Source: a virus | DNA length: 24,276 bases | Strand: one strand, 5' to 3' | IMG/VR virus record: IMGVR_UViG_3300045988_119278 | The notes under the pieces: generated by a model | What the model was told of the DNA's origin: nothing | Databases searched by the model: none | Seen by the model: only the letters and a program-made list of their open reading frames with translations | Part shown: one piece after another, positions 1 to 24,276 of the stretch | How positions within the stretch are numbered: the stretch's first letter is position 1 | Layout: every line of letters begins with the position of its first letter | Translations under genes and position numbers: made by a program

Positions 1-119
1 CTCAAAGGAGAAAGCAAAATAAGTTATGGTATTGTCATCATTTATTTGTTTAAAATAATACATATAACAACCTCCTTACTCTACCCAAAAGGCATAGATA
101 TAATAATCTCTTGAACTTA
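1..119. repeat. Terminal overlap copy 1, identical to 24158-24276. Indicates a circular or circularly permuted genome with 24,157 bp unique length.
   Basis: Direct string comparison of the two window ends. The repeat lies inside coding sequence (3' end of CDS 76..507 and 5' end of the CDS annotated at 24065..24220). Confidence 0.95.
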
Positions 120-507
120 TAGAGATAGAAGAAGCATTACTCCACCCTATAGAAATTGTCTGTGTGGTTTTATCATAGTCAATGTAATAACTTATATCAG
201 TAATCTCTCCACCGGTCTGTATCCTTTCCACTATCCCTGTTGAAACATTGTATCTTGTAATAGCACCATTCATTACCATAACAAAAGTATAATTTGTTGG
301 AAGGTTTGTATTAGTTATTGTCTTAGTGCCATTCTTATTTTTTGGCATTGAAAAGCTTGTTGCCATTTGTATATACTTTAATTCCCCGCCACCTGCTTGA
401 ATACCCTAAATAGCAGTAGGTATAGCATCAAGGGTTAATAACTCTGTTCCGCCCGTCTTTTCTCTAATAGCTGAACCAATAGCAGAGAGTTTATCAGTAA
501 GTGCCAT
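76..507 (-). CDS. Structural, fibre-associated protein of unknown function, 143 aa, with 1 in-frame TAG (406-408)
   Basis: ATG at 505-507 overlaps the TGA stop of the upstream CDS. N-terminus is MALTDKLSAIGSAIREKTGGTELLTLDAIPTAI. Track ORF 76..366 is its C-terminal part in the same frame. TAA stop at 76-78. Confidence 0.6.
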
Positions 508-802
508 TCTCAATAACCCCCAATGCTTGATTGATTAATGTATTTACTTGGTCTGCGGTTTGGTAGCCTTTATTTTCAACTTCTGTCATAGTAGCATAAC
601 CACTCAAATCAGGCTTACCAGTTATATCATTCCAAGCAACCCCACCTACAGCAGAAGTATCTACCCATAATTTAATCTTATTATCAGTAGGAGCAACAGC
701 CCCTACTGATATTTCAGTTTTATCATTCACATAAGATTTAATTTGGGAAGACAACTTACTTAAACCGCTACCATTAATAATTTTATTATCAGTAGTTGCC
801 AT
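494..802 (-). CDS. Fibre-like protein carrying a G-Y-Q-T..QV..I motif, 102 aa
   Basis: Intact track ORF with RBS AAGAGGTG upstream of the ATG and a TGA stop. Motif NKGYQTADQVNTLI is shared with CDS 814..1386. Confidence 0.75.
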   Translation of the reverse strand: MATTDNKIINGSGLSKLSSQIKSYVNDKTEISVGAVAPTDNKIKLWVDTSAVGGVAWNDITGKPDLSGYATMTEVENKGYQTADQVNTLINQALGVIENGTY

Positions 803-813
803 AAGCGCACCTC

Positions 814-1386
814 TTAAACTGCGTCAGTCCAAATTTGATTAATTTCCGCATTGGTTAAGAAGTCAAGGCTAACAGAAGTATCTCCTATTACTTCCCACTT
901 GCTATTGATATAAGCATACTCAGTGTAAATATTACCCTCAGTGCCTTGCTCTTTCAATTTAAGATAAATCACATTGGAAGAACCAGTAGCAGGAAGATTC
1001 TCAACAATCTCAAACTTAAATCCACCAACACCACCAATAGCAGAAGCAATAGCGTCCTGAACCTGCTTAGAGGTCTAATAGCCCTTTCCCTCAACTGCGG
1101 TCATTGTAGTATAGCCCTTATCAGTAATTGCGGTTTCTACCTGAGCGCTTGTTTGATATCCTTTACCTGAAATGGCGGTATCTACGTCATTGGCGGTTTG
1201 ATATCCAGCACCATTTGTAAGTTGATTGTTATTAGTAGGAATAGTTGGAGTATTAGCAATGAGAGAATAATCTAACTTACTATCCGCACTAATCTTATCT
1301 TGCTTACTTGCTAAACCCTCTTTGACCTTTTGAGTATAAACTACTAATTGGTCGCCCTTTAATACTTTGTTATCATAACTTGCCAT
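814..1386 (-). CDS. Fibre-like repeat protein, 190 aa, with 1 in-frame TAG (1075-1077)
   Basis: Track ORF 1075..1386 ends at TAG. The same frame stays open to TAA at 814-816. Repeats are GAGYQTANDVDTAI, GKGYQTSAQVETAI, DKGYTT and GKGY[TAG]TSKQVQDAI. C-terminus is ...NVIYLKLKEQGTEGNIYTEYAYINSKWEVIG. Confidence 0.8.
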
Positions 1387-1401
1387 ATTTAAATGTCCTC
1401 C

Positions 1402-1662
1402 TTAATATGTTTGCCAAATGGCTAATATATCTGAGTTAGTGAGACTATCTAAGCCCACAACCTCACTTGAAATTTCTGCTTTCAATTCTTCTTTATCTTT
1501 TGGAGTGTAGTAATCAACACCCTTAACAGGGGTATCACCCTTATCTCCCTTATCCCCCTTATCACCTTTACCGCCTTTATCACCTTTATAGTAATCAACA
1601 CCTAAGTTTAAATTACCATTCAAAGATTCTTCAACAGAGAGAACACCTTTTATTTCAATCAT
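1402..1662 (-). CDS. Collagen-like (G-X-Y) repeat protein, 86 aa; fibre or capsid-decoration candidate
   Basis: Contains GDKGGKGDKGDKGDKGDTP. RBS AGGAGG is present, the ATG overlaps the upstream TGA (ATGA), and the stop is TAA. Confidence 0.8.
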   Translation of the reverse strand: MIEIKGVLSVEESLNGNLNLGVDYYKGDKGGKGDKGDKGDKGDTPVKGVDYYTPKDKEELKAEISSEVVGLDSLTNSDILAIWQTY

Positions 1663-1988
1663 TGTGTTACCTCCTATCCAATTTCAAAAGTGGCAAAGGG
1701 AACAACGGTATAAATCTTACCTCCAAAAGTGGTAAGTTGAATATCATAGCAATATGTTCCAATAGCAAGAGATTTAGTATCATCAGGTAAGAAGTCAATC
1801 ACACCTTTGCTTGCGGTTTTGGCAAAAGCAATCTGACTGTCTGCGGTCTTTCTTACTGTTAGCGTGATTGTATCATCATCAAATAACTATCTCTCTTTGC
1901 CTGTATTGTCATATACCTTAACTTTAAGTGAAGCATTATCGCCCTTAGTTAAGTATATCTTATTTGTTTTCTCATTGATTTTAAACAA
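1659..1988 (-). CDS. Small beta-rich (Ig-like?) structural protein, 109 aa, with 2 in-frame TAG (1887-1889, 1674-1676)
   Basis: RBS AAGGAGG plus a 9-nt spacer and a TTG start. The frame is open apart from TAG and ends in TGA overlapping the next ATG. It is not in the track because TAG splits it into pieces under 60 aa. Confidence 0.6.
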
Positions 1989-2002
1989 GGCTTTCAACCT
2001 CC

Positions 2003-2794
2003 TTATTCTATAATTGCCAAAATAGCACAGCGGTCATTAGCGTGAAATGGTGGAATAGTCTCGCCTACAACCGCTTCCTCAATCAAGAAAATCTTACCAT
2101 TCATCTATTTACATCTATCACAAGTTCTATCATCCTTAGCAGATAAAACCTGATACTTTTTGATTCCAGCTTGCTTGTATTTATCTAATGTGGCCTAATT
2201 CTGAACATAACTTAGCTCAGTTCTTGCCAAGCGGTCAGCCTGTCTATATCCAACATTAAAATCATTCATTAGCTACATAACCAACTAATCTTTGCTTGCC
2301 CCTCTGCTGATACAATCAATCAAACCTTTTTCCAAGCCAACCTGTAATTTTGCTTTGTTCTGCCATATTCTTGTGCTCCAGTTCTTACCATCCGCACACC
2401 AAACCGCATTAATAACTTCTTTTGCTTGCTTTTGGTTAAACTCACCTGAGAACCCCAATGATTGACCTACAGCCACGCTTGTTTTCTAATACATATCCAA
2501 CAACTTTTTATCTGTTATCTTTATTTCCTTTTGGCCTAATGCTTTCAACTGCTTATTCAAAGACTTAACCAAAGAGAAATATCTATTATATTTGTATAAA
2601 TCGCTTGCTAAAAGAGTGCCGTTATAACTACTTGCTATAATCTCATCATACAGGGCTATAATATCCTTTTTAACCTGCTCCATAGAGTAAACATATTGCT
2701 TACTTAACTCTTGCTGATACTCTAAAAGGGTCTTATCATAAAGCAGTTCTTTTTGTCTGGTTTCTCTTTTCAGCCAATACTTACTGCTGTTCAT
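2003..2794 (-). CDS. Head morphogenesis protein, SPP1 gp7 / Mu F-like, 263 aa, with 5 in-frame TAG (2486, 2285, 2273, 2195, 2105)
   Basis: Track ORFs 2486..2794 and 2285..2476 are in one frame. Read-through gives ...ARTELSYVQN.ATLDKYKQAGIKKYQVLSAKDDRTCDRCK.MNGKIF...PPFHANDRC, the MuF-type C-terminal motif. TAA stop at 2003-2005. Confidence 0.85.
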
Positions 2795-4103
2795 TTACTG
2801 TTTCCTCTTGGTTATTTTGGAAAGAATACATATCAATATTTGCTTGCTTCTGCTCTTCCAACTGCTCTAATTCCTTTTGAACATCACCAACAAAAGGAAG
2901 CTGTGCTAACAAGGTAGCATCACTTACCAAACCTCTTAATTGATTAACCATTTGAGCAATTTCCAAAGTATTAACGGGTAAGTTTCTTGTAAACACAATG
3001 TCAATATCTCTCCACATTGAATCCCCGCCCTTGATATTGATAACCTCACAGATTAACTCAATGCGTTTCTGTAATGCCTTAGTCATATTGGCAACTATGT
3101 TAGAAGAAACATTTTCAAAGCCAGTCAATTTATATCTCATACTAATACCAGAAGCAGACATAAACTTATCATCATTAAAATCAGGTGAATTAGCAATCTT
3201 ATGTATAGTATCATTAATGTTTTTGAGCATATTTTCAATCTGTGTGTCTGATACGCTCTTTGTTAAATAGCTGGCTTCTGCGTCTGCGTCCATAATAAGC
3301 ACTCTGTTTTGCTTCATTGCTTGTAAATCATCCGCATCAGCTTGAACGCCCTTTAAGATTAAGTAAGCATCGCAGAAAGATTCAAAATCATCTACCTCAC
3401 TTGATAAGAGTTTGTTGTATGCGTCCTGTAGGCTCATAACCTTATCAAAAATGCTTTCTCTCTCTTGGTTCAAGGGGAACACAGTAATAGGAACTTGTTT
3501 GAAATAGTTAGGTCTTTCTTCCAAGAGTGAAAGAACAGCAAAGCCAACTGAACTTTCATAAATTAGAGTGCGGTCTTTGCTATAAACTTCAATATAATAT
3601 TTCTCTTGTGCTTCATTGATATTATCAGCAACATAATATCTAATTACATAAAGCAACTCACTATTCAAGTCATTAGCATAGATAGGAATTACTTCTCTTG
3701 GGTCTAATACCTTGAATCTTTGTTTCCCTAATTCATCAATATAGTTAATCTCATAAGAACAACCATAAATCAATGCTTGTCTAAGATAATCATTATCCTC
3801 TGTCCGCACGTCATTATAGTTAAGAACATTTTGAATCTCTACAAAGTCTTTCTCTGACTGATAGGCAATATCAATACCCGTTAGATAGCCTAAGTAATTC
3901 TGAACTATGTTATAGCAATAGTTAGTTACAATGCGGTTACAGGGCTTTCCAACATCAGTAGAAGACTTATAAATGATATCCTGTTTGCCTTTGTAATATT
4001 TGTAATACTTGTTTAATATAGGTTTATCCTGAATCTCAAATTGCTAAATACACTTACTTATGTATTCAGTTGTCAATGGTGCTTTTTTATCTATGATAAA
4101 CAA
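2781..4103 (-). CDS. Portal protein (SPP1 gp6-like), 440 aa, with 1 in-frame TAG (4044-4046)
   Basis: Track ORF 2781..3809 continues upstream in frame to a TTG at 4101-4103 preceded by GGAGG. The N-terminus ...KPILNKYYKYYKGKQDIIYKSSTDVGKPCNRIVTNYCYNIVQNYLGYLTGIDIAY is portal-like. Stop is TAA. Confidence 0.9.
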
Positions 4104-4123: not shown

Positions 4124-5359
4124 TTATAAACCTAAAACCGCTTTATCCAAGGTTTTAAGTCCTGATTTAGTATATATATCTGAGTAAGCATATCTTAACC
4201 CATCAATACCGTGCGAAAACTCGTGCGTGTATTTGTCCTCTTGGTATTCTCCTTGTTTATCCTTTTGATATGAGAAATTGGATAGCTCAGTTATCAGGTT
4301 TTGGCATTTGGAACTAACTATAATGGTATGGTTTTGTAAAAAGGATAAACCTGCTTTAACCGAATCCTTACCTTTGATACAAGGAGCAACATAAAAGCCC
4401 TATTTTTTGAAATAGTCAATGCTTCTTGGTTCTGCGGAATCCATATAAATCTTAGTCTTTGCTAACTCCATTGTGCGGATTGCCTGACTTACAGTATCTA
4501 ACTGCTAACCCCTCTTGTAATACTCATTGAGAACATAGATTGTCTTATTTTGCTTGTCATACAATGTATCAATTATTGTTGTTGGGTCAATAAAGCCCAA
4601 GTCCGCGCCCGCTCTTCTTTCTAATCCAAGAGAGAGAAGATTTTCCGTATCTAAAATAGTTTCCTGCCAATTATGAAATACTAACCCCTCATCCGGCACG
4701 CCCCACTCACCAAAACAATAAACTCTGGCTTTATTTGGGTTTCTTGTTATAAGCTCTTCTAATGAATTTACATACTCCTAAGATAGAAAAGGATTATCCT
4801 TGTATGTTGTCTCACTAAAATAAAAACTTTTGGGCGGATTTACAACACAAAAGTCATAGAGCCAATGCGCTTTGCTTATGGGGTTAAAGGCCATTAGTAT
4901 TTGCTGATTTGGCACGGTGGAGCGCATACGCAAGTTCAACTGCTCCACAATATCCTTGCTTACCTCAAATACTTCCTCAATAAAGATTGTGCCTATATCA
5001 TTGAGAGATAGCAATTTAGTCTCTTCATCCAACCCCATAAAGATAATTTCAGAACCATTTGGGAACTTAATATTAAAGTCCGTTTCTCTGATTTTTACAT
5101 AGGGCAGAATCTACCACTTTGTTAGAATCTCTTTGAATAGGGAGAAACAGGTATTTCTTATTGTTGAGCCATATTTACGGCAAACTAAGATTTTGATTTT
5201 CTCAGAACAAGCCCTAATTATCAATTTCTAAGTGATAAAATAGGACTTGCCTGAACCTGCTGAACCTTTATAGACTTCCCACCTATGAGAGTAGTCCAAA
5301 AGCAAAGGAAATAATGTTTTTGAAAATGCGGACTTGTCTATATTTAAGGTTATTGACAT
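4124..5359 (-). CDS. terL: Terminase large subunit (PBSX/Terminase_6-like), 411 aa, with 5 in-frame TAG (5228, 5111, 4778, 4505, 4400)
   Basis: Walker A KGSAGSGKSYFIT[TAG]KLI. Track fragments 4778..5038 and 4505..4699 are in the same frame. The nuclease end is ...IYMDSAEPRSIDYFKK.GFYVAPCIKGKDSVKAGLSFLQ...HGIDGLRYA. TAA stop at 4124-4126. Confidence 0.93.
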
Positions 5360-5560: not shown

Positions 5561-5932
5561 TCAATCTCCTGTTATGTTTATATGTATATTGTTGTTAAGC
5601 TCCGCCTGAACCTTTTGTGTTTGTAAGCCCGTCTGTTTCTGTAAGAGGTCTAAGGCTTTCAATCTAATATTCTGCGGTGTATCCTCACTAAAAGCCATTT
5701 CTGATAACTCATTAGCAATATGTTCAGGTGTAATGTGGTTTGCTTCAAATATTTCTTTTTCCAACTGACTTATTCTTTCTTTAACTTCTGGCATTTTCAT
5801 TAGGCGTGCTCCGCCTGCTCTTGCTGAATCGTTCTTCTTAGTAGCATATACTTTTTCATAAGCCTTGCCCGCATTATATTTACAAGCAATAAATTCACGG
5901 CAAAACATTTCCTGTTGTGTATTCAGTGCCAT
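5561..5932 (-). CDS. terS: Terminase small subunit, 123 aa
   Basis: Track ORF 5561..5953. I place the start at the ATG following GGAGGTG. Sequence MALNTQQEMFCREFIACKYNAGKAYEKVYATKKNDSARAGGARLMKMPEVKERI matches the Terminase_2-type N-terminus. Stop is TGA. Confidence 0.8.
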   Translation of the reverse strand: MALNTQQEMFCREFIACKYNAGKAYEKVYATKKNDSARAGGARLMKMPEVKERISQLEKEIFEANHITPEHIANELSEMAFSEDTPQNIRLKALDLLQKQTGLQTQKVQAELNNNIHINITGD

Positions 5933-6346: not shown

Positions 6347-6376
6347 TTATGTAGTTCTTTCTATTGTATATAATTT

Positions 6377-6841
6377 TTAATTAAGTGCGGTTTTTGTGTT
6401 TTGCCCGCCCTTGTTATACTGTTTTACGTGCTCTATCACCATTTCCGCACTTGCTTTCTTGGCTATTGGATTCACTGTATAATGTATTCCGTCCTCTTTT
6501 GGTATTTGGTAATTCATTATAGGCACATACTTTCTAATCCATTTACCTTCAACAATTAGCAAGTTCTTTTTATTGGGGACATACTCTAACACCTCAAAAC
6601 AAAGGGTATAACCCTGTTGGATTATACCCCTAAATACATCATATTTATGTTCTGGTAAGTTTAGTTTTGTATTAACCTAATGCGCTAAGATTCTTTTTAA
6701 TAAATTACTTGCTTTACCAATATAAATGATAACACCATCTATCTTAATACAATAAATACCCGCTTTATCTAAGTGCGGTTTTTGGTTTTTGATTTCCTCA
6801 TATTGCTATATCATTGTTTTGTAATATATATTATCTTTCAT
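6377..6841 (-). CDS. GIY-YIG nuclease (homing-endonuclease-like), 154 aa, with 2 in-frame TAG (6806-6808, 6677-6679)
   Basis: RBS AAAGGAG and ATG at 6839-6841. Sequence is ...KAGIYCIKIDGVIIYIGKASNLLKRILAH[TAG]VN...LLIVEGKWIRKY. Track ORF 6377..6592 is the C-terminal part in the same frame. Stop is TAA. Confidence 0.8.
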
Positions 6842-6960
6842 TGGGGTTACTCCTTTCTTATTTAAAAGTGTAAAAATTATTTGCGGGCGGAACTCCTATT
6901 TAGTGCTTGTGCGGAAACACCCAGCGGGGAAGTTCCTTATAATTTTCTTTTCCATTCTTG

Positions 6961-7007
6961 TTATATGGGGGCTTCCGCTCTCCAAGGCGGAAAAGCCCAC
7001 CATATAA
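6961..7007. other. Long imperfect GC-rich hairpin (about 20 bp stem, loop TCTCCAAG), preceded by a second stem 6889-6894/6931-6936
   Basis: TTATATGGGGGCTTCCGC / GCGGAAAAGCCCACCATATAA pair with two small bulges. The segment is locally GC-rich in an AT-rich genome. There is no adjacent T-run and no convincing ORF. Confidence 0.55.
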
Positions 7008-7042
7008 CTATACTCTGTATAGTCTCTATAATATTTCTGGTA

Positions 7043-7079
7043 GAAATTTACTACCACATAAAGATGAAATTTACTACCA
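7043..7079. repeat. Direct repeat GAAATTTACTACCA x2 (7043-7056 and 7066-7079), followed by short palindromes up to about 7135
   Basis: Exact 14-mer duplication with a 23-bp period. Nearby inverted repeats are CAACTT-ATA-AAGTTG and CACTTT-TGA-AAGTG. Confidence 0.7.
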
Positions 7080-7146
7080 AGTTTTTGAAAATTTCAACTT
7101 ATAAAGTTGATATTTTACACTTTTGAAAGTGGAAATTTTCCTTTCC

Positions 7147-7422: not shown

Positions 7423-7436
7423 TGTTATTTCCTCCT

Positions 7437-7916
7437 TTAATGTCTATCCCAAAGTATTTTAGCTTTTTCCGCAGAACCCACTCTATTAATTAATTCCTGA
7501 TAAGTGAGTTCAATATATTCGTCAACTGTTCCCTTAACTTTAAACTTCTTCTTTTCTTCCTCTACTGGAATACTATCATCTATTGGACGCTCATAGAAGT
7601 CATAAGAGTGTTTTTCTCTTAAAACTAAATATCCTTTTTCTATCAGGTCATTAACTGCGGATTTGGCTGTGTCCTTACTCATTCCGCAAACATCCGCTAT
7701 ATCTTGTGTGCTTAAAGCAAAGTGGTAATTATCTACATTTCCTAACATATACATATACGCTTTGAAAGAAGTTGCTTTACTCAAATTCTTCATAGCGTCA
7801 TTGATATTATCATTGTAAGCAATTACATAAGAGCGCTTACTTTCTTTTGTTCCTTTTGGAACTTCTCTGTGAATTGTGATTCTTCTCTAATTAGCATAGG
7901 TAATAAGTTCAGCCAT
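7437..7916 (-). CDS. Winged-helix/HTH DNA-binding protein (Rep-organiser or regulator-like), 159 aa, with a TAG at codon 10 (7887-7889)
   Basis: RBS AAGGAG and ATG at 7914-7916. Track ORF 7437..7793 is in the same frame but its ATG has no RBS. Sequence includes ...STQDIADVCGMSKDTAKSAVNDLIEKGYLV. Confidence 0.7.
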
Positions 7917-7918
7917 AA

Positions 7919-8068
7919 TTATTTCTCCTTATTATTAAATTGAGCCATATACCATTTAACCGCTTCTCTAATTAATTGTGATACTGGTATATCTTTTTCT
8001 TTAGCCATTCCCTCAATAGCTTCTTTTAATTCTTCATCAAATCTAACTGTTGCTCTATAATCTTTCAT
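7919..8068 (-). CDS. Ribbon-helix-helix (CopG/Arc-like) protein, 49 aa
   Basis: Sequence MKDYRATVRFDEELKEAIEGMAKEKDIPVSQLIREAVKWYMAQF. The ATG overlaps the upstream TGA and the stop is TAA. Confidence 0.75.
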   Translation of the reverse strand: MKDYRATVRFDEELKEAIEGMAKEKDIPVSQLIREAVKWYMAQFNNKEK

Positions 8069-8226
8069 TCTATTTCAATCTCCTCTTGGTATAAAAGTAA
8101 AAGAGCATATCTAACTACTTCTGACATACTCATATTGTGCTTAATCGCATACTCCTACAATCTTTCTTTCTATTGGAAACTCATCCCAATACATACGTCT
8201 GTTTTTTTATCTTTTGTGTATTTCAT
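8065..8226 (-). CDS. Ribbon-helix-helix protein, 53 aa, with 2 in-frame TAG (8170-8172, 8155-8157)
   Basis: RBS AAGGAG and ATG at 8224-8226. Sequence is MKYTKDKKTDVCIGMSFQ.KERL.EYAIKHNMSMSEVVRYALLLLYQEE. Stop is TGA in an ATGA overlap. Confidence 0.65.
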
Positions 8227-8713: not shown

Positions 8714-8992
8714 TCAGCAAGTCTTTAAGCGCTCATAGGCAAGGGCAACCGCATAATACTTATCATAAATGTCAGTCTTAGGATTCCTATCTGCTACATC
8801 ACTCATAATAGTATCCTCAAAAACGCACAAAACCACATCTTGATAATCTCCTTCATCAAAGCGTTCCTCAACATAGTTACTATCAAGGCGTTCAAAAACG
8901 CAATCATTTAACAACTCTTCAACTTCTTCTCTCTTGGACGTTTTATCAATAATTTCCTCAACATTCATCTTATATAAGTCATTAACTAACAT
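8714..8992 (-). CDS. Highly acidic 92-aa protein, first gene downstream of the leftward switch promoter
   Basis: Intact track ORF with RBS AAAGGAG and a TGA stop. About 24 of 92 residues are D/E. No in-frame TAG. Confidence 0.7.
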   Translation of the reverse strand: MLVNDLYKMNVEEIIDKTSKREEVEELLNDCVFERLDSNYVEERFDEGDYQDVVLCVFEDTIMSDVADRNPKTDIYDKYYAVALAYERLKTC

Positions 8993-9039
8993 TCTTATCT
9001 CTCCTTTTTATCTTTGTTTTTCCTTTATCTTATATATAT

Positions 9040-9068
9040 ATTATATTATTTATTTTTAATAAAATCAA
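9040..9068 (-). promoter_or_regulatory. Sigma-70-like promoter TTGATT-17-TATAAT (leftward)
   Basis: Minus strand has TTGATT at 9068-9063, a 17-nt spacer, and TATAAT at 9045-9040, upstream of CDS 8714..8992. Confidence 0.55.
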
Positions 9069-9275
9069 AAAAGGACTTTTGTATTAGTTATATAATGTTA
9101 TCTTCTCTTTCTTTTGGATATTGCTTTGTATAAAATAAAATTACTCAGTATAAAAGCAAGTTATCTGTCATAAAACTTTTAACCTTAAATGATAGCACTT
9201 TTTATTGAATTTTGCCTTTCATTTTATTGATTTTACACAGAAAATAACTCTCTAATAATTTGTTTAATGTGGATA

Positions 9276-9303
9276 TTGACTTATATAATTCCTTGCCTAT
9301 ACT
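9276..9303 (+). promoter_or_regulatory. Sigma-70-like promoter TTGACT-16-TATACT (rightward)
   Basis: TTGACT at 9276-9281 and TATACT at 9298-9303, about 50 nt upstream of the ATG at 9352. It is divergent from the 9040-9068 promoter. Confidence 0.6.
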
Positions 9304-9351
9304 AATCATCAGGGGAAACCCCACACAAAATAGGAAAGAGAGATAATCACA

Positions 9352-9540
9352 ATGAGAATTAGCCTTGATTTGGAAACCAATGAAATTATTGTCCCCAAGA
9401 ACTTCTTTAAGGAGATTGAAAAAAGGAACGAAATGATTGTTAAAATGGGCGGTGAAGCCATTAAACCCATTGACCTTATTAAAAAGTCCTTTGAAGTGGC
9501 TATGAGTAATACGGACAAGAACTTACACGTGCGCGCTTAA
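9352..9540 (+). CDS. Hypothetical 62-aa protein, first rightward gene
   Basis: Track ORF with a promoter upstream, a weak RBS (AAGAGAG) and a TAA stop. The antisense ORF 9309..9518 is hydrophobic, low-complexity and lacks an RBS. Confidence 0.55.
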   Translation: MRISLDLETNEIIVPKNFFKEIEKRNEMIVKMGGEAIKPIDLIKKSFEVAMSNTDKNLHVRA

Positions 9541-9541
9541 T

Positions 9542-9724
9542 ATGGGAGCAAAGGGGACTAAAGTAACCAGTAGAGAGAAAAAGCGTATGTGGGAACTCTA
9601 CCAGTTGGGTTTAACTTTCTCTGCTATTGGTAAGAAAATGCGTCGTTCACCTGATACAATTAGCAGATACGTCCACGAGTATGAAGCCAGCCTAAATGTA
9701 GCCAACCTATTAACGCAAAAATAA
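9542..9724 (+). CDS. Small HTH DNA-binding protein, 60 aa; regulator or excisionase-like candidate
   Basis: Sequence SREKKRMWELYQLGLTFSAIGKKMRRSPDTISRYV has an HTH pattern. The gene starts 2 nt after the previous stop, ends in TAA, and is convergent with the integrase. Confidence 0.7.
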   Translation: MGAKGTKVTSREKKRMWELYQLGLTFSAIGKKMRRSPDTISRYVHEYEASLNVANLLTQK

Positions 9725-9752
9725 AAAGAAGGGGTTTATGCCCCTTCTTTTT
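9724..9752. terminator. Bidirectional hairpin terminator between convergent genes
   Basis: AAAAAGAAGGGG-TTTATG-CCCCTTCTTTTT, with A-run and T-run flanks. The integrase stop codon lies in the loop. Confidence 0.7.
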
Positions 9753-10662
9753 TCATCTTCTCTGTTAGATTGTCTAATGGATTAAATTGAATCTGTAAGT
9801 CATTGCCATAGAGATTGACATAGTGCCTACTCATATCAATGGTGCTATGTCCCAACCAGCCTTGAAGCTGAACCATACCCCCGCCCGCCATTACAAACTT
9901 TTTGGCAAAGGTGTGTCTAAATAAGTGAGCGGAAGTCTTAGAAACCCCTCTTGAAATGTTGTAGGTTGTCAGGGCATTTTGAAAACCCCTCTTATTAAGC
10001 ATTGCGCCCTCACAGGATGGAAACAAAGGGCTATCAGGTGTCCAGTCCCACGTGTCTAAATACTCTCTCAAAACGGCTTCTAAAGCCTTGGAAAGGGGGA
10101 TTAATTGTTGCTTGCGGTTTTTCATCATTCTCAGAAAGATAAAGCCCTTTTCAAAGTCAATGTCCTTTACCCTCAGATTAATCACCGTGCCTACTCTATT
10201 TCCAGTAGCAATGAGGTAATTGACCGCACACCACATACGCCATTCCGTCCACCTATTGGAATCAGGCTTTTTAAGCAATCTGGCAAGTTCCGCATCAGTA
10301 TAAGGCTCTTTCTCTTCCGCATCCTCTTTCATCAGGGTAATTTCAAGGGGTTTCATATACTCCCTTTCAACCATAAACCTGAAAAACACTCTAAGCCCTC
10401 TAATTCTTGTATTTAAGGAAGTGGTTTTCTTACCCGCATCAATAAGAGACACAAGCCAATCCTCATAAACCTGTTGCGTGACCTCATCCACATATTTAAA
10501 TGTTCCAGCAGTAGAGAAGAAGTATTCAATATCTTCCTCATAGTATCTTAGGGTTTCTTCTCTCAGATTCTTCAATTTACAATGCTTGATGAACTCTGAT
10601 TCAGCTTCTACAATTCCTATGCGCTTTTGGGTCTTTGCGTTTTTGATGGTAGTCATTCTCAT
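9736..10662 (-). CDS. int: Tyrosine recombinase / phage integrase, 308 aa, with no in-frame TAG
   Basis: Intact track ORF. The C-terminal catalytic region is ...AHLFRHTFAKKFVMAGGGMVQLQGWLGHSTIDMSRHYVNLY (R..H-x-x-R..H..Y). GGAGG RBS and TAA stop. Confidence 0.93.
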   Translation of the reverse strand: MRMTTIKNAKTQKRIGIVEAESEFIKHCKLKNLREETLRYYEEDIEYFFSTAGTFKYVDEVTQQVYEDWLVSLIDAGKKTTSLNTRIRGLRVFFRFMVEREYMKPLEITLMKEDAEEKEPYTDAELARLLKKPDSNRWTEWRMWCAVNYLIATGNRVGTVINLRVKDIDFEKGFIFLRMMKNRKQQLIPLSKALEAVLREYLDTWDWTPDSPLFPSCEGAMLNKRGFQNALTTYNISRGVSKTSAHLFRHTFAKKFVMAGGGMVQLQGWLGHSTIDMSRHYVNLYGNDLQIQFNPLDNLTEKMKKEGA

Positions 10663-10721
10663 AGATTATTTTCCTCCATAAAATCCAGTTCTCTACCACC
10701 CCAAGGAATCTAATGTAAAAG

Positions 10722-10750
10722 AAAAAAACTCAAGGGAAAAACCCTTGAGT
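10722..10750 (-). terminator. Rho-independent terminator immediately 3' of the tRNA-like segment
   Basis: Perfect 9-bp stem ACTCAAGGG/CCCTTGAGT with a 5-nt loop, followed on the minus strand by T7. Confidence 0.7.
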
Positions 10751-10759
10751 TTCAACACT

Positions 10760-11543: not shown

Positions 11544-14500
11544 TTAACTAAAGTAAATAATGACACACCCCTAAGCACCAGAAGAACCAGAAGAACCAGA
11601 ACCTCCTGAGCCACCACTACCAGAGTAGATTTTAGGATTGTCATTTTTATAGGGGTTAGAATCAGCGCCATAATTAACATTACCATACATAGCAACACCG
11701 CCAGAAGCGCCACCACCACCGCCACCGCCGTTTCCTCCATTACCACCATTACCATAAGTAGTAGGAGCACTTGGAGCAACAGCAGAAGCACCTTTACCAC
11801 CATCAGCACACCAAGCTGTAAATCTTGGAGACTGTTGAGAACCATAGATTCTTGAAGAATTGCCGTGAGCAGAATTATTACCAGCAGAAGCCCCACCAGA
11901 GCCACCACCACCAGCAACAACACCAATGGTTACATTATTATAGTTTATGTGTCCAAAATCGCTGGCTCCGTAAATATTACCACCACTATAAGTAGTTCCA
12001 TTATAAACAACACTTTTACCAACTTTAGCATTATAGTAGCTCCATTGCATCATACCAGTGCCAGTTACTCTAATAATTTCATAACCGTCACCACCATCAC
12101 CACCAGCTATACCTTCATTACCAATAACGGCATAAGTAGCATTGGTAAACGTGTTTGTGTAACCAGTAGAAGAGGAAGAACCAGTAGCAGAAGAAGCAGT
12201 AGTGCCATTGTAAGTGAATGTAGTATTTCCACCTGCTGAACCTGCGGTATTGGTAGAACCACCCGCACCACCTGAACCAATGCTAATAGTAAATGTGTCA
12301 GTTAATTTTGGAATGATAAAATCTTTCTAAAAGATTTTGCCACCAGAGCCAGCCGTGCCACCTGAGCCACCAGCACCGCCAGAACCATTACTTGCTATAT
12401 CGTATCCTCCATTTAATTTAACAGAAGCAGAACCGCCACCTCTACCAGACGAACCATTTTTACCACCTTTACCGCCCGTTCCGCCACCAATACAAACAAC
12501 TCTAATGTTTCTATGTGTAGCGCCAATACCTGACAAAGTATAACTACCGCCCGCACTAATTACTGTGCTCTTGGTATAATCATAAGTCTTAATTGAAACG
12601 GTAATTGGTTGATTTGCGGTTTGGGTAATTCCGCCATCTGTATAAGAAACAACAATTTGAGTTGTTCCATAAGGCAAAACGCCACTTGGGGAATAAGTAT
12701 AAGTTGTAATTACTTTATTTGTGTTATCAGAATAATAAGCGGTTATTTCCATTCCCTAAGTGTTAAATGATTCAGTATCATAATAGGATTTATATGTTGG
12801 CTCTTGGGTAATTGCTATTGAAGTTAGATAGATAACAACAATAGTCAATGTAGCCGTTTTAGTAATTCCCTTTTTAGTATAAGATACTGTAATTGTTGTA
12901 TCATCTTTTCCAAGAGCGGAAGTAGGTGTGTAAGTATAACCTCTAATTGCTTTACTACTTCCATCGTCAAAACTGGCAACAACAACCATACCTGTATTAT
13001 CAAAAAACTCACCTGCTCTATAAGTCATTTTATCAGGGTTAGTTATTATAGAAATACCAGTAAGATTTGGTGTATTTCCTATTGTTATCTCTTGGATAGT
13101 TGTTTTTGTAATTCCATCCTCAGTATATGAGATTGTAATTTCCGTATCATTATTACTACTAACTGTTTGCGGGCTGTAGGTGTAATTCTCTACAACTTTG
13201 CTTGAACCGTCTGAATAATAGGCTTCTAATACCATACCAGCAAGGCTAATAGTTTCCCCAATCTCATAAGCAGTTTCATCAGGTGGAGTTGTAATTGCTA
13301 TTGTCTTTAATAAGTTCTTAACTACAACGTCTAATTCTGTGCTCTTAACAACTCCCATTTCTCTATAAGTAATAATTACTTTAGTTGTATCCTTGGTAAG
13401 AACACTTGGGCTTACTGAGTAGTTTTTAACAATGGCTTTGTTTCCATCATCGTATGTGGCTTCAATAACCATTCCTGTTTTATCAAAATAATCCCCTGCT
13501 TCATAAGTTGTCTTATTGGGCGGAGTTTTAATAGCAATACTTACTAACTCTCTACTACCATAAATAGGTGGTGGATTATAGCCCAATCTTACTTCAACTT
13601 CACCTTTGGTTATTTGCTGTCCAAAAGTTCCCTCAATGCTCTTAATAATACCTGTGCTTTCCTCTTCAAATTGATTTGGCATAGTTATATTGTCTAAAGG
13701 TTTTTCATCATTCATAACTATTGAGCCTGATAAAGTGCTAGGCGCGTCATAATAAGCCATAACTTTTTCAGCAACAGAGTTAGAATTTGCTAAAGTGATT
13801 AAAGTAGCGTCCTCTACCTTAGCAACCTTTTCTTTACCTTGGTAGTTCTCTTTATCTCTGCTCACAATCAATTTTGAATGTATGTAAGGCTTTCCTTTAA
13901 TGGTAGCACTTGCGGAAGAAGAGACAACCGCATAATTCACACCTACTTCACTATTGAGTAAAGAGCAACCTGAAAAAGTAATACTATGGTGTGGTTCATC
14001 CCAAGTAATAATTGCTCCATTATCAATTACATATCCTTTTGGACTTGTAAAGCTACTTCCTACAATTTCACCAACATAAATATCCTCAGCCTAAGCATTA
14101 TCAACCTTGCTAAATTGATGCTCTATGACTTCAATTCTGCTTGCTGGGGCATTGTAGGTTATCTTACCTGAATCATAAACTCTATTGGCAGGGATTCCAG
14201 TAGGCGTATCAACTGTAAGAGTAGTAAAGTTGATAATACCATCTTTCTTTTTAACACAACCTCCAACAGCAAAGAGAAGTTGTTTTAAATTATCTCTTCT
14301 TGTGGCTACTGGCAACCAACCATAAACCTTAATCTTAGAAAAGATACTGTGCTCAGTATAAGTTATCTTTCCACCAATAATATCTTTAATAATATCACTT
14401 GCGGTTTGGCCTGAGTAAATACCGCCATAGTGGTTTGTATCATCCAATAGGCCAATAGCAGATTGAAGTGAGAAAGTGTATTCATATTTGCTGTTTCTCT

Positions 14501-14762
14501 CTACGTCTTTAAGATAGTAGCGGGCATATAATTTATCATCTTTATAGTATTCAACCTCTGAACCATAAGTAAAGGAGATAAGAGAGGGTGTTGCCCTCTC
14601 ATATCTCACTTTAACAGTCATTGTGTCTATACTTAATTCATCTTCTAACAAACTTGTTTCATTATAGAATGAACCCTCTATGATTTTCCCCTCTCCACTA
14701 TCAACCTAATCAGTAAAGGTTAATGTGATATTTTTATCGTATTTGTATATAACTTTGTTCAT
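11544..14762 (-). CDS. Giant tail tip / fibre protein, 1072 aa: Tal-like N-terminus, four Big_3-type Ig repeats, then glycine-rich C-terminal domains. 5 in-frame TAG (14706, 14091, 12756, 12327, 11571).
   Basis: Track ORFs 14091..14651, 12756..13940, 12327..12752 and 11571..12053 all share one frame and are separated only by TAG. The TAG at 12756 lies inside a Big_3 repeat (..ESFNT.GMEITAYYSDN.. aligned with ..FFDNTGMVVVASFDDG..). ATG at 14760-14762 follows GAGAGG. TAA stop at 11544-11546. Confidence 0.8.
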
Positions 14763-20808: not shown

Positions 20809-21612
20809 TTAAGCCTGTGCTTCTTTAATGGAGCAAATCTTAGTAGCATCAGCAAGGGCTACAAGGTAAGTAGCACGCATATAAACGCTATTCTTTCTGG
20901 TATCAGGATTGCGGTCAGGCTCAACCTCAACATCTTTCTTGATGAAGAGTTTGACGGCTTCTTTGGTCATAACAAAGGCAGAATCAGTAAGAGCCTTAGT
21001 AGCAATAACGGGAATACCGCAAATAGTGCCAACCTATCCGTTGTAAATAACCTGTCCCATCATAGCACTCTTATAGTCTTCATCCTTGCGGAGAGATGCT
21101 TTCCAAGTGTTAGGAATGAGAATGAATAACTGGCTTTCGTCTTCAAGGTTGAGAGTGCTAATAGCATCAACAATGGTATCATAGTTAAGAGCGCCACCCT
21201 TAGCAAAAGTAACACCCAAAGTAACATCAGTGCTCTTAACAGCACTAATAAAGTCAGCGGTCATCTTGTTAGTCATTACCTGAACTGCGCCTCTCATCAT
21301 ACCATCAACAATAAAGGGGTCTTTCATTGCTTCCTCATCGGTATAATCATAAGCCTGTTGGCAGAGCTTTACACGGTAATCTTTACCAGTATAAGAGATA
21401 GAACCACGCTTAGAAGCGGTATTACCAACGCCATTAGCAAGTTCCTCAGCTTCACCCTTATAGGTGTAAGTATTAACAGTTTTAAGCATACCCGCGCTTT
21501 CTGCTAACTCATTATCAATAGTCATAAGAGAACGGGTATTAAGAGAGGTGGTAAGCAAGTCTTTTGCTACGCTCTCGACGATTTTATTATCAAATACAAC
21601 ATTAGTTGCCAT
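20809..21612 (-). CDS. Major capsid protein, 267 aa, with 1 in-frame TAG (21034-21036)
   Basis: AAGGAG RBS and ATG at 21610-21612 (MATNVVFDNK..). Track ORF 21034..21633 continues in frame through ..QVIYNG.VGTICGIPVIATKALTDSAFVMTKEAVKLFIKKDVEVEPDRNPDTRKNSVYMRATY.. to TAA at 20809. Confidence 0.9.
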
Positions 21613-21634: not shown

Positions 21635-22132
21635 TTAATTCACTAATTCAAAATGAAGTCCCTTTAAGGTTTTCTATCTTCCATTAATCATATGACTTAC
21701 AGCACTATAATCAACTCCAAGAGCCAAAGAAGCATCTCTGCCAGATTTATAAACAACTCCTGTTTCTACACATCTTATAGGTTTGCTTATCTTTTGAGAT
21801 GCCTTTTCATTCCGTGTGCCATAATTTATGTTATAACTGCGGGAACACCATTCTAAATTGTTTTCTTTATTATTATCTTTGTTTTCATCCTTATGGTTTA
21901 CACAAGGATAATTGTTTGGGTTTGGTATAAAATGAAGCGCAACCAATCTACTAACCTATTCTCTTTTTACTTTGCCATTAATAGCATACAAGCAAACAGT
22001 GTGATAGCCTTTTTGGTTTTTATGATGCTTCAAATATATTTGTCTTTTCTTGCTCCAAACCCTACCCATATTACTAATCTAATAGTTTGGGTATCCTTTA
22101 ATATCCATCCAGATTTCATTGTTCTCCAACAT
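21635..22132 (-). CDS. HNH homing endonuclease with a NUMOD4-like N-terminus, 165 aa, with 3 in-frame TAG (22081-22083, 21953-21955, 21674-21676)
   Basis: Sequence is MLENNEIWMDIKGYPNY[TAG]ISNMGRVWS...VSRLVALHFIPNPNNYPCVNHKDENKDNNKENNLEW...HMINGR[TAG]KTLKGLHFELVN. GGAGG RBS and TAA stop. It is inserted between the scaffold and capsid genes. Confidence 0.88.
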
Positions 22133-22707: not shown

Positions 22708-22790
22708 AATATTAACCTCCTAAGTTTATGCCTTAAAGCATACCCTTTAATTAAAATATGAGTTTTATTTCTAACCATCAATTAAATATA

Positions 22791-22825
22791 AGAAAAGGGG
22801 TAGAGCGTTTTATTAACTCTGCCCC
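22791..22825 (-). terminator. Hairpin plus T-run after CDS 22873..23061
   Basis: Minus strand reads GGGGCAGAG-(11 nt)-CTCTACCCC followed by TTTTCTT. Confidence 0.65.
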
Positions 22826-22872
22826 AAATCTATTAACATTTTACAAAATTTTTTTAACTAAGTCCAATAGGA

Positions 22873-23061
22873 TTAGTCTGCTATTGGAACTTCAATGTAG
22901 TTATCAATACTATCATTAGAGCCAATGAATAAGGTTCTAACATAGAGGTGTTCTTGCTCTTCTTCCCCTTTTTCATTGGTGTGGCTTTTTGGTTCTCTCC
23001 AATCAAAAACTTTTCCTTTATCACTATCATATCTGATTAAATCAAAACTTTTTGCTTTCAT
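22873..23061 (-). CDS. Hypothetical 62-aa protein
   Basis: Intact track ORF with AAGGAG RBS and a TAA stop, followed by a terminator. Confidence 0.6.
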   Translation of the reverse strand: MKAKSFDLIRYDSDKGKVFDWREPKSHTNEKGEEEQEHLYVRTLFIGSNDSIDNYIEVPIAD

Positions 23062-23073
23062 ATAACATTCTCC

Positions 23074-24084
23074 TTATACAAATGATACAGTCCATCCTTT
23101 TGCGGTTGCTACTGCTATTTCTTCCTCAGTCATAGTGTTAATAGCTCCACCGTCAGTTTTAGCTCCTTGAGCGCCTTCAAATTTAATTGTATTAGTTCCT
23201 CCTGCTGTAGCTAAATAGGCACTTGTGTCAGGTAGTGAGTTAATAGTTTCTACAGCTGAAATGCGATTATAACGGGAATAATTTATATCCGAAGTCCAAC
23301 TATCAGGGTCATCTTTTAAAGCCTAATATGTAGCATCGTCTTTAATTTGCTTTGTTGATGAAAAACCATACTTGTCGGCATAAGAACCATAACCAACGGT
23401 TTTAGTTAAATCTATTATTTGGCTTTTCCACTCTACTACCTAATTAGGGTCAAAAGTTAAGCGCTTTAAACGCTAACACAGGTCAAAAGTAGAAACAAAC
23501 GCATTATAAGTCATTTTACCACTCATTATTGGAGCACCTAACCCAATGATTTCATCTAAAACATAACAAAAACGGAATCCATTAAAGTATATTAAATTAC
23601 GCTTACTACTATTTTCTAATTTAGTTAATTCTAATACTTCTGTAGGGATTTTTCTTAAATATTTAGCACTATAAAAGCAATTATCTAATCCAACTTGTTT
23701 AAATGAACCTGCTGGCGGTAATACAAAAACATTGTCTAAAGTCTAAATTTTTGAATTTTCAATAATATTATTCATACTTAAAGAGTAGTTATTTCCGACT
23801 GAATTTAAGTTTATTTTAAAGGGGATAGAAGTTAATTTTGAATTATAAAACATATAATTACAATAGCGGACTCTTTTTAATTGTATTTTATCTTTATACT
23901 TTGTTATAAACCAATCCCAAATACCATTATAATTAAAATAAGAAAAATTAAAATCAGTATAACCAGTGGTATTTCCAAAAGTCAATTCCTATTGAGTAGG
24001 AGCGGGCATATCACTTATTTCGTAGGCAACATTCTTACTTGCCACTTTCCATTCATTACCATCTTTATATTTCAGCACTGGCAT
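23074..24084 (-). CDS. BspA/DUF285-type leucine-rich-repeat protein (adhesin or receptor-binding candidate), 336 aa, with 5 in-frame TAG (23989, 23743, 23473, 23440, 23323)
   Basis: AAGGAGG RBS and ATG at 24082-24084. LRR-like units are ..RVRYCNYMFYNSKLTSIPFKINL.., ..NCFYSAKYLRKIP.. and ..TFDLC.RLKRLTF.. The C-terminus is ..MTEEEIAVATAKGWTVSFV. TAA stop at 23074. Confidence 0.75.
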
Positions 24085-24220
24085 TTGCTTCATCCTCCTT
24101 AATAGCAAGTATGTATTCTTCTTTTGTCATAGGATACATATTACCACTCACTTTTGGCTCAAAGGAGAAAGCAAAATAAGTTATGGTATTGTCATCATTT
24201 ATTTGTTTAAAATAATACAT
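24065..24220 (-). CDS. Hypothetical 51-aa protein. Its 5' end lies in the terminal overlap and is also seen at 1..63.
   Basis: GGAGG RBS and ATG at 24218-24220 (equivalent to 61-63). Sequence is MYYFKQINDDNTITYFAFSFEPKVSGNMYPMTKEEYILAIKEDEANASAEI. Stop is TAA. Confidence 0.5.
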   Translation of the reverse strand: MYYFKQINDDNTITYFAFSFEPKVSGNMYPMTKEEYILAIKEDEANASAEI

Positions 24221-24276
24221 ATAACAACCTCCTTACTCTACCCAAAAGGCATAGATATAATAATCTCTTGAACTTA
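24158..24276. repeat. Terminal overlap copy 2, identical to 1-119
   Basis: Direct string comparison. Confidence 0.95.

What the first reader, a model, noticed from the sequence alone, without database searches (positions are those of the whole stretch)
1..24276. No suppressor tRNA, release-factor or aminoacyl-tRNA-synthetase gene is visible, so the source of TAG decoding is unexplained
I read all non-coding stretches on both strands: 6163-6376, 6842-7146, 8227-8713, 8993-9351, 10663-10991 and 22708-22872. The only tRNA-like sequence is the truncated Leu(CAG)-like 3' segment at attP, which has no CUA anticodon and no 5' half.

Many described recoded phages carry their own tRNA-Sup(CUA). A 24-kb genome with about 63 sense TAGs and no visible decoding device implies one of three things. 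The host may supply a suppressor or have an altered code. The phage may depend on a co-resident element. Or there may be an unconventional RNA that I cannot recognise by eye; the GC-rich structured region at 6883-7007 and the 8227-8713 region are the places to look.
Basis: inference. Interest (0 to 1): 0.75.

Follow-up and report, generated by a model that had tools for sequence, protein, structure and literature searches.

The report
TAG-recoded gut prophage lacking any decoder
This is a complete 24-kb temperate phage of the human-gut bacterium Hominicoprocola fusiformis that reads the stop codon TAG as glutamine yet carries no tRNA, release factor or synthetase gene to do so. That gap is real and shared by its whole clade, but it is already a recognised open problem for this published phage group ("Topaz").

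Summary
The window is a complete circular genome (119-bp terminal repeat; 24,157 bp) with 62 in-frame TAGs in 26 of 35 genes and no gene ending in TAG. TAG means Gln, because it interchanges mainly with CAA/CAG in relatives. ARAGORN (default and relaxed), Rfam, a custom CUA-anticodon scan and Pfam/PHROGs on every ORF find no tRNA(CUA), RF or aaRS. The only tRNA-like piece is the 3' 58 nt of tRNA-Leu(CAG) in attP.

About 25 recoded relatives, at least 9 of them covered end to end, also have none. ARAGORN readily finds tRNA(CUA) in other recoded phages.

The host is Hominicoprocola fusiformis (Oscillospiraceae): attP matches its attB at 97% over 145 bp. Host DNA is about 60% GC, has no in-frame TAG and uses TAG as a rare true stop, so an altered host code is refuted.

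The phage fits the published "Topaz" clade (Borges et al.). Published surveys find suppressor tRNAs in only 40-52% of TAG-recoded phages.

The decoder is most likely supplied in trans: a Gln-accepting tRNA(CUA) from the host or a co-resident element, competing with RF1. This is unproven.

The parts
1..24276 (-). Complete circular genome of a TAG->Gln recoded temperate siphovirus. Bases 1-119 repeat 24158-24276, so the true length is 24,157 bp. Nearly all genes are on the minus strand.
10674..10818 (-). attP core, 145 bp, 97% identical to attB of H. fusiformis CLA-AA-H188
10761..10818 (-). 3' 58 nt of tRNA-Leu(CAG), from the anticodon loop to CCA; identical to the host gene. It rebuilds the tRNA at attL after integration.
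10819..10851 (-). Degenerate pseudo-5' half upstream of the tRNA fragment. ARAGORN calls the pair only at the 80% threshold, as 'SeC(tca)', with a poor cloverleaf. It is not a CUA tRNA.
10924..10951 (-). Perfect sigma-70 consensus promoter (TTGACA-16-TGnTATAAT) reading through the pseudo-tRNA towards int
10725..10753 (-). Intrinsic terminator of the tRNA-Leu gene, carried inside attP
9736..10662 (-). Tyrosine integrase, 308 aa, no TAG
9352..9724 (+). Plus-strand TAG-free operon (62-aa ORF 9352-9540 and 60-aa HTH ORF 9542-9724); putative lysogeny-maintenance genes
8993..9351 (.). AT-rich divergent promoter/switch region
8714..8992 (-). First early gene, 92 aa, acidic, TAG-free; ORFan confined to this phage species
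8227..8713 (-). 487-nt non-coding stretch with a promoter-like site and two terminator-like hairpins (8505-8479 and about 8323-8255). It is structured (z = -4.0) but not conserved beyond close kin, and it has no tRNA signal.
6842..7146 (-). Non-coding stretch upstream of the GIY-YIG gene, containing the GC-rich hairpin at 6883-7007 (z = -5.5). The segment is absent from sibling recoded genomes L001/L040.
6377..6841 (-). GIY-YIG endonuclease (2 TAG)
7437..7916 (-). wHTH replication/regulatory protein (1 TAG at codon 10); an early gene that already needs TAG decoding
8065..8226 (-). RHH (Arc/CopG-like) early regulator, 2 TAG
5561..5932 (-). Terminase small subunit (0 TAG)
4124..5359 (-). Terminase large subunit (5 TAG)
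2781..4103 (-). SPP1-type portal (1 TAG)
2003..2794 (-). Mu-F-like head morphogenesis protein (5 TAG)
20809..21612 (-). HK97-type major capsid protein (1 TAG)
21635..22132 (-). HNH/NUMOD4 homing endonuclease (3 TAG); absent from siblings L001, L003 and L032
15142..18219 (-). Tape measure protein (9 TAG)
11544..14762 (-). Tail protein with Big_3 repeats and a Gly-rich C-terminus (5 TAG)
11331..11531 (-). Holin-like TM/coiled-coil protein with TAG at codon 2. Found in 13 divergent recoded contigs and in none of the standard-code relatives sampled.

Best explanation
The window is a Topaz-type temperate siphovirus of Hominicoprocola fusiformis (Oscillospiraceae). It integrates into tRNA-Leu(CAG) and writes about 22% of its glutamine codons as TAG.

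Its lysogeny genes (integrase and the plus-strand operon), the first early gene g8714 and the 87-aa gene next to attP are TAG-free, so the standard-code host can express them. Most other genes, including early regulators and the replication protein, need TAG to be read as Gln.

The phage genome encodes no decoder. The most likely source is a glutamine-accepting tRNA with a CUA anticodon supplied in trans. It could be a normally silent or low-level suppressor in the host chromosome, or one carried by a co-resident mobile element or phage. It would work in competition with the host's still-active RF1.

Shown here: the recoding, TAG = Gln, the host identity and its standard code, the clade-wide absence of tRNA/RF/aaRS, and the lack of any conserved TAG-free phage factor. 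Inferred: that the decoder is a trans-supplied tRNA(CUA).
For: The genome is complete and circular and has no tRNA or Rfam RNA. No RF, aaRS or deaminase domain appears in any ORF scanned.

The same holds for about 25 TAG-recoded relatives, including at least 9 genomes covered end to end. ARAGORN does call tRNA(CUA) in dozens of other recoded-phage contigs, which serves as a positive control.

No TAG-free or early protein is shared across the recoded clade, and the candidate g8714 is an ORFan. Non-coding stretches are not shared either. A universal phage-encoded switch is therefore not visible.

TAG = Gln: CAA/CAG account for 55 of 111 distinct TAG substitutions, and Q is the commonest residue opposite TAG in standard-code relatives.

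TAG is as common as CAG (62 vs 67), and the tape measure has 9 TAGs. This demands efficient, tRNA-like decoding.

Sense TAGs favour +4 A and avoid +4 T relative to CAA/CAG (p = 7e-4, n = 373), while true stops favour +4 T. This is the classical context signature of a suppressor tRNA competing with a release factor (from my knowledge of E. coli amber-suppression context effects).

TAG is a rare stop in the host (4 of 92 filtered genes), so transient suppression would be cheap.
Against: No host or helper tRNA(CUA) was found. Before the probe scans, the 3.3 Mb of loci then held contained none. A probe for a host-type tRNA-Gln backbone with a CUA anticodon found only unrelated phage or environmental tRNAs, at most 73% identical to the host-type tRNA-Gln. 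I could not scan a whole H. fusiformis genome.

A constitutive host suppressor would read through the roughly 4% of host genes that end in TAG. Dependence on a helper is hard to square with the 50-fold in-vivo replication reported for a Topaz prophage (bioRxiv 10.1101/2021.08.26.457843).

[quoted passage not shown] Some Topaz members may therefore carry their own.
Confidence: 0.45

Rival explanations
1. A code switch that needs no tRNA gene. On induction, the phage or a host stress response neutralises RF1, and UAG is then read by near-cognate tRNA-Gln(CUG). Alternatively, a host tRNA is edited in the anticodon: for example, tRNA-Trp CCA to CUA by C35-to-U deamination, a tRNA that GlnRS-type recognition would charge with Gln.
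For: No tRNA gene exists anywhere in the clade. A TerL-related TGA-recoded relative (L175) also lacks a suppressor tRNA, which one anticodon-editing activity on tRNA-Trp could explain (C34 or C35). [quoted passage not shown] Near-cognate decoding in RF1-deficient E. coli yields mainly Gln (my knowledge).
Against: No deaminase, protease or RF-binding domain is present, and no conserved TAG-free protein could start the switch. Near-cognate read-through is too inefficient for 9 TAGs in one protein, or for a codon used as often as CAG. The +4 context bias indicates that RF1 is still competing.
Confidence: 0.25
2. The phage does encode its own decoder, but as an unconventional RNA or small protein that current tools cannot recognise. 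It might sit, for example, in the 487-nt early non-coding stretch 8227-8713 or in the promoter-driven pseudo-tRNA transcript at attP. Each sub-lineage would carry a non-homologous version.
For: Both non-coding stretches fold better than shuffles (z = -4.0 and -5.5). Region 8227-8713 follows the first, TAG-free early gene, has its own promoter-like and terminator-like sites, and is 97% conserved among close kin. A perfect consensus promoter drives a tRNA-like chimera at attP. Divergent relatives also have early-region gaps of 150-450 nt.
Against: There is no tRNA or other Rfam signal even at E<=10, and no CUA anticodon arm. The pseudo-tRNA's nominal anticodon is UCA or CAG and its cloverleaf is poor. 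Region 6842-7146 is missing from equally recoded siblings. Nothing non-coding is shared across the recoded clade except a 50-70-nt AT-rich promoter patch. Bacterial ribosomes and EF-Tu need a near-canonical tRNA.
Confidence: 0.15
3. The host itself reads TAG as a sense codon, either through an altered genetic code or through pyrrolysine-type decoding.
For: This would explain the lack of phage machinery, as with code-25 phages of Absconditabacteria (Borges et al.).
Against: Host genes next to the prophage have 0 in-frame TAG in more than 2,200 codons, and the apparent exceptions are spurious antisense ORFs. Host genes do end in TAG. The phage's lysogeny genes avoid TAG (clade-level p = 1e-16 in Borges et al.). 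TAG interchanges with Gln codons, which does not fit Pyl.
Confidence: 0.02
4. The TAGs are real stops, and the element is a decaying, non-functional prophage.
For: Deleted remnants of this prophage do exist at the same attB (L310/L311).
Against: Only TAG interrupts the genes; TAA and TGA never do. TAG swaps with CAA/CAG. Full-length circular genomes recur in many samples. Borges et al. documented active replication of a Topaz prophage.
Confidence: 0.01

Closest known systems
Topaz clade of alternatively coded phages (Borges et al. 2021/2022, bioRxiv 10.1101/2021.08.26.457843)
   Same: Genome of about 22+-3 kb (a curated prophage is 23,706 bp). TAG recoded to Gln. Oscillospiraceae host using the standard code. 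Integrated next to a tRNA. TAG-free integrase, with most other genes containing TAG. A marked GC drop relative to the host. Unidirectional gene and GC-skew layout. Relatives L006/L174 sit at tRNA-Thr, as in the paper.
   Different: This genome integrates at tRNA-Leu(CAG) rather than tRNA-Thr. The host is resolved here to a cultured species, H. fusiformis. [quoted passage not shown] I could not compare sequences directly with the paper's Topaz genomes.
Garnet TAG-recoded prophages of Prevotella (same paper)
   Same: About 24 kb, temperate, TAG-recoded, TAG-free integrase, tRNA att site, standard-code host.
   Different: Different host phylum and different clade.
crAss-like, Lak and Jade recoded phages with a 'code-change module'
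   Same: Stop-to-sense recoding (TAG = Gln in crAss-like and Lak phages; TGA = Trp in Jade), concentrated in late and lytic genes, in a standard-code host.
   Different: Those phages encode suppressor tRNAs, sometimes with RF1/RF2 or an aaRS, and theta ribozymes may flank the tRNAs (PMC10879173). This genome has none of these. Recoding here also reaches early genes.
Code-4 and code-25 phages that share their host's altered code (Mycoplasma/Spiroplasma, Absconditabacteria)
   Same: The phage needs no decoding genes of its own.
   Different: In those cases the host uses the same code. Here the host uses the standard code.

Membership tests
Topaz clade (TAG-recoded temperate Oscillospiraceae phages) | TAG reassigned to glutamine (code 15) | tested here: met
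   Coding coverage rises from 52% to 88% with TAG as sense. TAG interchanges with CAA/CAG in 55 of 111 substitutions. Q is the commonest residue opposite TAG.
Topaz clade (TAG-recoded temperate Oscillospiraceae phages) | Small genome (about 22+-3 kb), siphovirus-type structural module | tested here: met
   24,157 bp circular genome. TerS/TerL, SPP1-type portal, HK97-type capsid, tail tube and tape measure are present.
Topaz clade (TAG-recoded temperate Oscillospiraceae phages) | Prophage in a standard-code Oscillospiraceae genome, bounded by the integrase and a host tRNA | tested here: met
   Integrated copies are L043 and L045-L047. attB of H. fusiformis matches at 97% over 145 bp. The host flank uses the standard code.
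Topaz clade (TAG-recoded temperate Oscillospiraceae phages) | Integrase avoids in-frame TAG | tested here: met
   0 TAG in 308 codons. The lysogeny/switch set has 0 of 15 Gln-type codons as TAG, against 62 of 266 elsewhere (p = 0.048).
Topaz clade (TAG-recoded temperate Oscillospiraceae phages) | Placement inside the Topaz TerL clade of the original phylogeny | not testable with these tools
   The paper's sequences and supplements are not held. Membership rests on matching descriptors only.
Suppressor-tRNA-based recoded phages (crAss-like/Lak/Jade type) | Phage-encoded tRNA with an anticodon complementary to the recoded stop | tested here: not met
   for the window. for relatives. One search is the positive control.
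Suppressor-tRNA-based recoded phages (crAss-like/Lak/Jade type) | Accessory release factor or aminoacyl-tRNA synthetase gene | tested here: not met
   Pfam and PHROGs on the ORFs, including every ORF of at least 300 aa.
Theta-ribozyme/tRNA modules (PMC10879173) | Minimal HDV-like ribozyme abutting a phage tRNA 3' end | tested here: inconclusive
   No HDV-like Rfam family hit at E<=10 and no phage tRNA to abut. The paper's RNArobo descriptor itself was not run.
Phage sharing an altered host code | Host genes use the same reassigned codon | tested here: not met

The most novel reading that the evidence does not exclude
A whole clade of complete, actively circulating temperate phages decodes about 60 UAG codons per genome as glutamine in a standard-code host, with no suppressor tRNA gene anywhere: not in the phage, the host or a helper. 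The mechanism would then be a switch independent of any tRNA gene, such as induced anticodon editing of a host tRNA (for example tRNA-Trp CCA to CUA) or RF1 neutralisation. Related TGA-recoded members would use the sister reaction.
Probability: 0.25. Interest if true: 0.85.

Novelty: new member of a known kind. Interest (0 to 1): 0.45.

Why it matters
How about half of stop-codon-recoded phages get their recoded codon read is an acknowledged open question (Borges et al.; Cook et al. 2024).

This genome does not answer it, but it narrows it usefully. The genome is complete, small (35 genes) and demonstrably lacks any decoder, and its relatives lack one too. Its host is now pinned to a cultured species, H. 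fusiformis: strains CLA-AA-H188 and CLA-AA-H269 have an empty, matching attB. That makes a clean experimental system possible.

If the decoder is a host or helper tRNA, lytic growth of these phages is gated by something outside the phage. If no tRNA gene exists at all, a new way of switching the genetic code would be implied.

Tried and rejected
1. Relaxed and organellar ARAGORN modes gave only low-score calls with non-CUA anticodons.

2. The weak tmRNA hit at 10772-10788 is just the T-arm and acceptor 3' end of the tRNA-Leu fragment. The acceptor lacks the G3:U70 of tmRNA.

3. I asked whether the attP pseudo-tRNA or a shifted 'uuCUAgu' loop in the tRNA-Leu fragment could be a CUA tRNA. The stems do not pair, and ARAGORN's best cloverleaf has anticodon UCA with three G:U pairs.

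4. g8714 as a conserved code-switch protein: it is an ORFan with no similarity to the analogous TAG-free first early ORFs of relatives.

5. A megablast of the whole window against INPHARED phages found no match.

6. A probe for a host-type tRNA-Gln with a CUA anticodon, run against viral and JGI metagenome contigs, returned many phage suppressors but none related to the host tRNA-Gln.

7. The two 'TAG-containing host genes' in L045, which might have marked a second recoded element, are spurious antisense ORFs.

8. A search for a cultured lysogen through the integrase cluster found only metagenome contigs and a MAG carrying a deleted remnant.

9. The Borges supplementary tables are not held.


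Full report
**What is in the window.** The window carries an exact 119-bp direct repeat at its two ends, so it is a complete circular assembly of 24,157 bp. Under the standard code the minus strand is only 52% covered by ORFs of at least 100 aa. Reading TAG as sense raises this to 88%, whereas reading TGA or TAA as sense does not.

The resulting map has 35 genes and 7,097 codons. There are 62 in-frame TAGs in 26 genes, and the stops are 24 TAA, 11 TGA and 0 TAG.

Pfam identifies a tyrosine integrase, TerS, TerL, an SPP1-type portal, a Mu-F-like protein, an HK97-type capsid, a head-tail connector, a tail tube protein, a tape measure and a Big_3 tail protein. It also finds GIY-YIG and HNH homing endonucleases. 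This is a temperate siphovirus.

**Which amino acid TAG encodes.** In standard-code relatives, Q is the commonest residue opposite the window's TAG codons. Within the recoded clade, 55 of 111 distinct substitutions at TAG sites involve CAA or CAG, even though CAA needs two base changes. TAG therefore means Gln (code 15). It supplies 22% of Gln-type codons, about as many as CAG.

**Checking the claimed absence.** ARAGORN finds no tRNA or tmRNA in default mode. Intron, mitochondrial and low-threshold modes give only poor calls, none with a CUA anticodon. Rfam gives nothing at gathering thresholds. At E<=10 it gives only noise plus a 17-nt match to the tmRNA 3' end, which is really the T-arm and acceptor end of a tRNA fragment. 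A custom scan for any CUA triplet in a 7-nt loop closed by a stem and followed by a T-loop finds nothing credible.

Pfam and PHROGs show no release factor, aminoacyl-tRNA synthetase, deaminase or tRNA-modifying domain in any ORF scanned, and every ORF of at least 300 aa is accounted for. Because the genome is complete, the missing device cannot be off-contig.

**The tRNA-like piece and the host.** Window 10761-10818(-) runs from the anticodon loop (CAG) to CCA of a tRNA-Leu. The near-identical contig L001 begins with a complete tRNA-Leu(CAG) next to the integrase, which is the integrated form.

Looking up the integrase found contigs with the prophage inserted after a host tRNA-Leu(GAG)/tRNA-Leu(CAG) pair. 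That pair lies downstream of SIR2, cation-efflux and SpoVAD/SpoVAC genes. The other junction leads into an ECF sigma factor gene and trpA.

Using the host SIR2 protein as a probe against reference genomes gave Hominicoprocola fusiformis strains CLA-AA-H188 and CLA-AA-H269 at 98-99% identity. Many 'Oscillibacter sp. ER4'/Oscillospiraceae MAGs followed. Window 10674-10818 matches the H188 attB at 97% over 145 bp, and the 58-nt tRNA part is identical. Both cultured strains have an empty attB.

**Is the host recoded?** No. Host flanks are about 60% GC against 35% for the phage. Called host genes have no in-frame TAG in more than 2,200 codons, while the adjacent prophage genes have many. Two apparent exceptions in L045 are spurious antisense ORFs. 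Among non-overlapping host ORFs with a GC3 signature, the stops are TGA 55, TAA 33 and TAG 4, so TAG is a genuine but rare stop.

**Is the absence peculiar to this genome?** No. Portal-, capsid- and TerL-anchored searches of IMG/VR returned about 25 TAG-recoded relatives, with portal or capsid identity of 69-99%. They also returned standard-code relatives and one apparently TGA-recoded relative, L175.

At least nine recoded genomes are covered end to end by overlapping loci. ARAGORN finds no tRNA in any of them except host att-site genes: Leu-CAG, and Thr-CGT in L006/L174. Rfam finds nothing in 140 kb of the divergent relatives.

As a positive control, a probe for a CUA anticodon arm retrieved 57 viral and metagenomic loci. 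ARAGORN called tRNA(CUA) in most of them.

**Is there a hidden phage factor?** The TAG-free genes are:
- the integrase;
- a plus-strand operon (62 aa plus a 60-aa HTH protein);
- the first early gene g8714;
- an 87-aa gene next to attP;
- TerS;
- a tail chaperone;
- three small ORFs.

None of the non-structural ones is conserved in the divergent recoded relatives, whose early and lysogeny modules differ entirely. g8714 is an ORFan and is unrelated to the analogous first early ORFs of other lineages.

However, 6842-7146 lies in a module that is replaced in the equally recoded siblings L001/L040. Region 8227-8713 is conserved only among near-identical genomes. No universal phage-encoded switch is visible, whether protein or RNA.

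**Indirect evidence on the mechanism.** Early genes already contain TAG: the RHH regulator has 2, the wHTH replication protein has one at codon 10, and the tape measure has 9. Decoding must therefore be available from the start of lytic growth, and it must be efficient.

Across ten non-redundant recoded genomes, sense TAGs are followed by A in 43% of cases, against 33% for CAA/CAG. They are followed by T in 13% of cases, against 21% (p = 7e-4, n = 373). True stops are followed by T about half the time. From what is known of amber suppression in E. coli, this is the context signature expected when a suppressor tRNA competes with a release factor. It suggests that RF1 remains active.

**Comparison with the literature.** Borges et al. 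(bioRxiv 10.1101/2021.08.26.457843) defined the 'Topaz' clade:
- genomes of 22+-3 kb;
- TAG recoding;
- prophages in standard-code Oscillospiraceae, bounded by an integrase and a host tRNA;
- a TAG-free integrase;
- active replication in vivo.

The window matches every descriptor I could test, although a direct sequence comparison was not possible. The same paper found TAG suppressor tRNAs in only 40% of TAG-recoded genomes. Cook et al. found them in 52% (PMC11210395). Both call the mechanism unresolved. Theta ribozymes (PMC10879173) are tRNA-associated and do not apply here.

**Verdict.** The altered-host-code option is refuted, and the two proposed hiding places are unlikely. My estimates for the source of decoding are:
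- a Gln-accepting tRNA(CUA) supplied in trans by the host chromosome or a co-resident element: about 0.45;
- a switch that needs no tRNA gene (RF1 neutralisation or anticodon editing of a host tRNA): about 0.25;
- an unrecognisable phage-encoded RNA or protein: about 0.15.

The cheapest decisive step is a whole-genome tRNA scan of the cultured H. fusiformis strains, which I could not run.

Noticed in passing
window 10924-10951 (-), with 10725-10918: A perfect sigma-70 consensus promoter (TTGACA-16-TGnTATAAT, 12/12) points through the pseudo-tRNA/tRNA-Leu fragment and its terminator towards int. After integration it ends up at the far (attR) end of the prophage, cut off from int and reading out towards the host ECF-sigma/trpA side. 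This suggests int expression that depends on the circular form.
   Followed up: partly
window 10790-10803 vs L001 55-68: The phage-borne tRNA-Leu fragment is identical to the H. fusiformis gene. Sibling L001 differs by a compensatory C..G versus T..A pair in the variable arm. The fragment therefore appears to be under selection to rebuild a working tRNA at attL.
   Followed up: partly
whole window vs host flanks (L043 1-9900; L062): There is a GC gap of about 25 points between the temperate phage (35%) and its host (about 60%).
   Followed up: partly
window 21635-22132 and 6318-8060: The HNH/NUMOD4 endonuclease gene between the scaffold and capsid genes is absent from siblings L001, L003 and L032. 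In L001/L040 the replication/early module 6843-8060 has no homologue, 6318-6451 does not align, and the GIY-YIG cassette 6451-6843 is only about 80% identical. These are mobile or mosaic modules within one phage species.
   Followed up: partly
L310 8718-14200; L311 2274-7756; L312: Deleted derivatives of this prophage sit at the same attB. They are remnants of about 5.5 kb that keep int, the 62-aa gene, fragments of structural genes and the 87-aa gene. One is in NCBI MAG GCA_048522405.1.
   Followed up: no
L175 (IMGVR_UViG_3300021400_000007): A relative with 61% TerL identity appears TGA-recoded (coding coverage 0.65 under the standard code vs 0.91 with TGA as sense). It also has no suppressor tRNA in the part held.
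   Followed up: no
L027 1369-1869; L028 5423-5923: Standard-code, higher-GC (0.51) relatives from rumen samples carry tRNA-Gln(UUG) and tRNA-Thr(GGT) genes. Such genes are possible raw material for suppressor evolution in this phage group.
   Followed up: no
window 9000-9072 vs L004 5493-5541, L005, L006 1403-1464, L030 4413-4471: The AT-rich early promoter patch upstream of the first early gene is about 76-82% conserved in divergent recoded relatives, even though the genes downstream are unrelated.
   Followed up: no
window 23074-24093 (-) and the whole genome: No recognisable endolysin was found. The only large unannotated ORF (339 aa, 5 TAG) looks like a leucine-rich-repeat surface protein by eye and has no Pfam or PHROG hit.
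   Followed up: partly
window 11331-11531 (-): The holin-like gene has TAG as its second codon. Homologues occur in 13 divergent recoded contigs but in none of the standard-code relatives sampled.
   Followed up: partly
sense TAG codons in 10 recoded genomes: TAG is preceded by A or T in 81% of cases, against about 58% for CAA/CAG. C and G are depleted at -1, possibly through CTAG avoidance. This is separate from the +4 bias.
   Followed up: no
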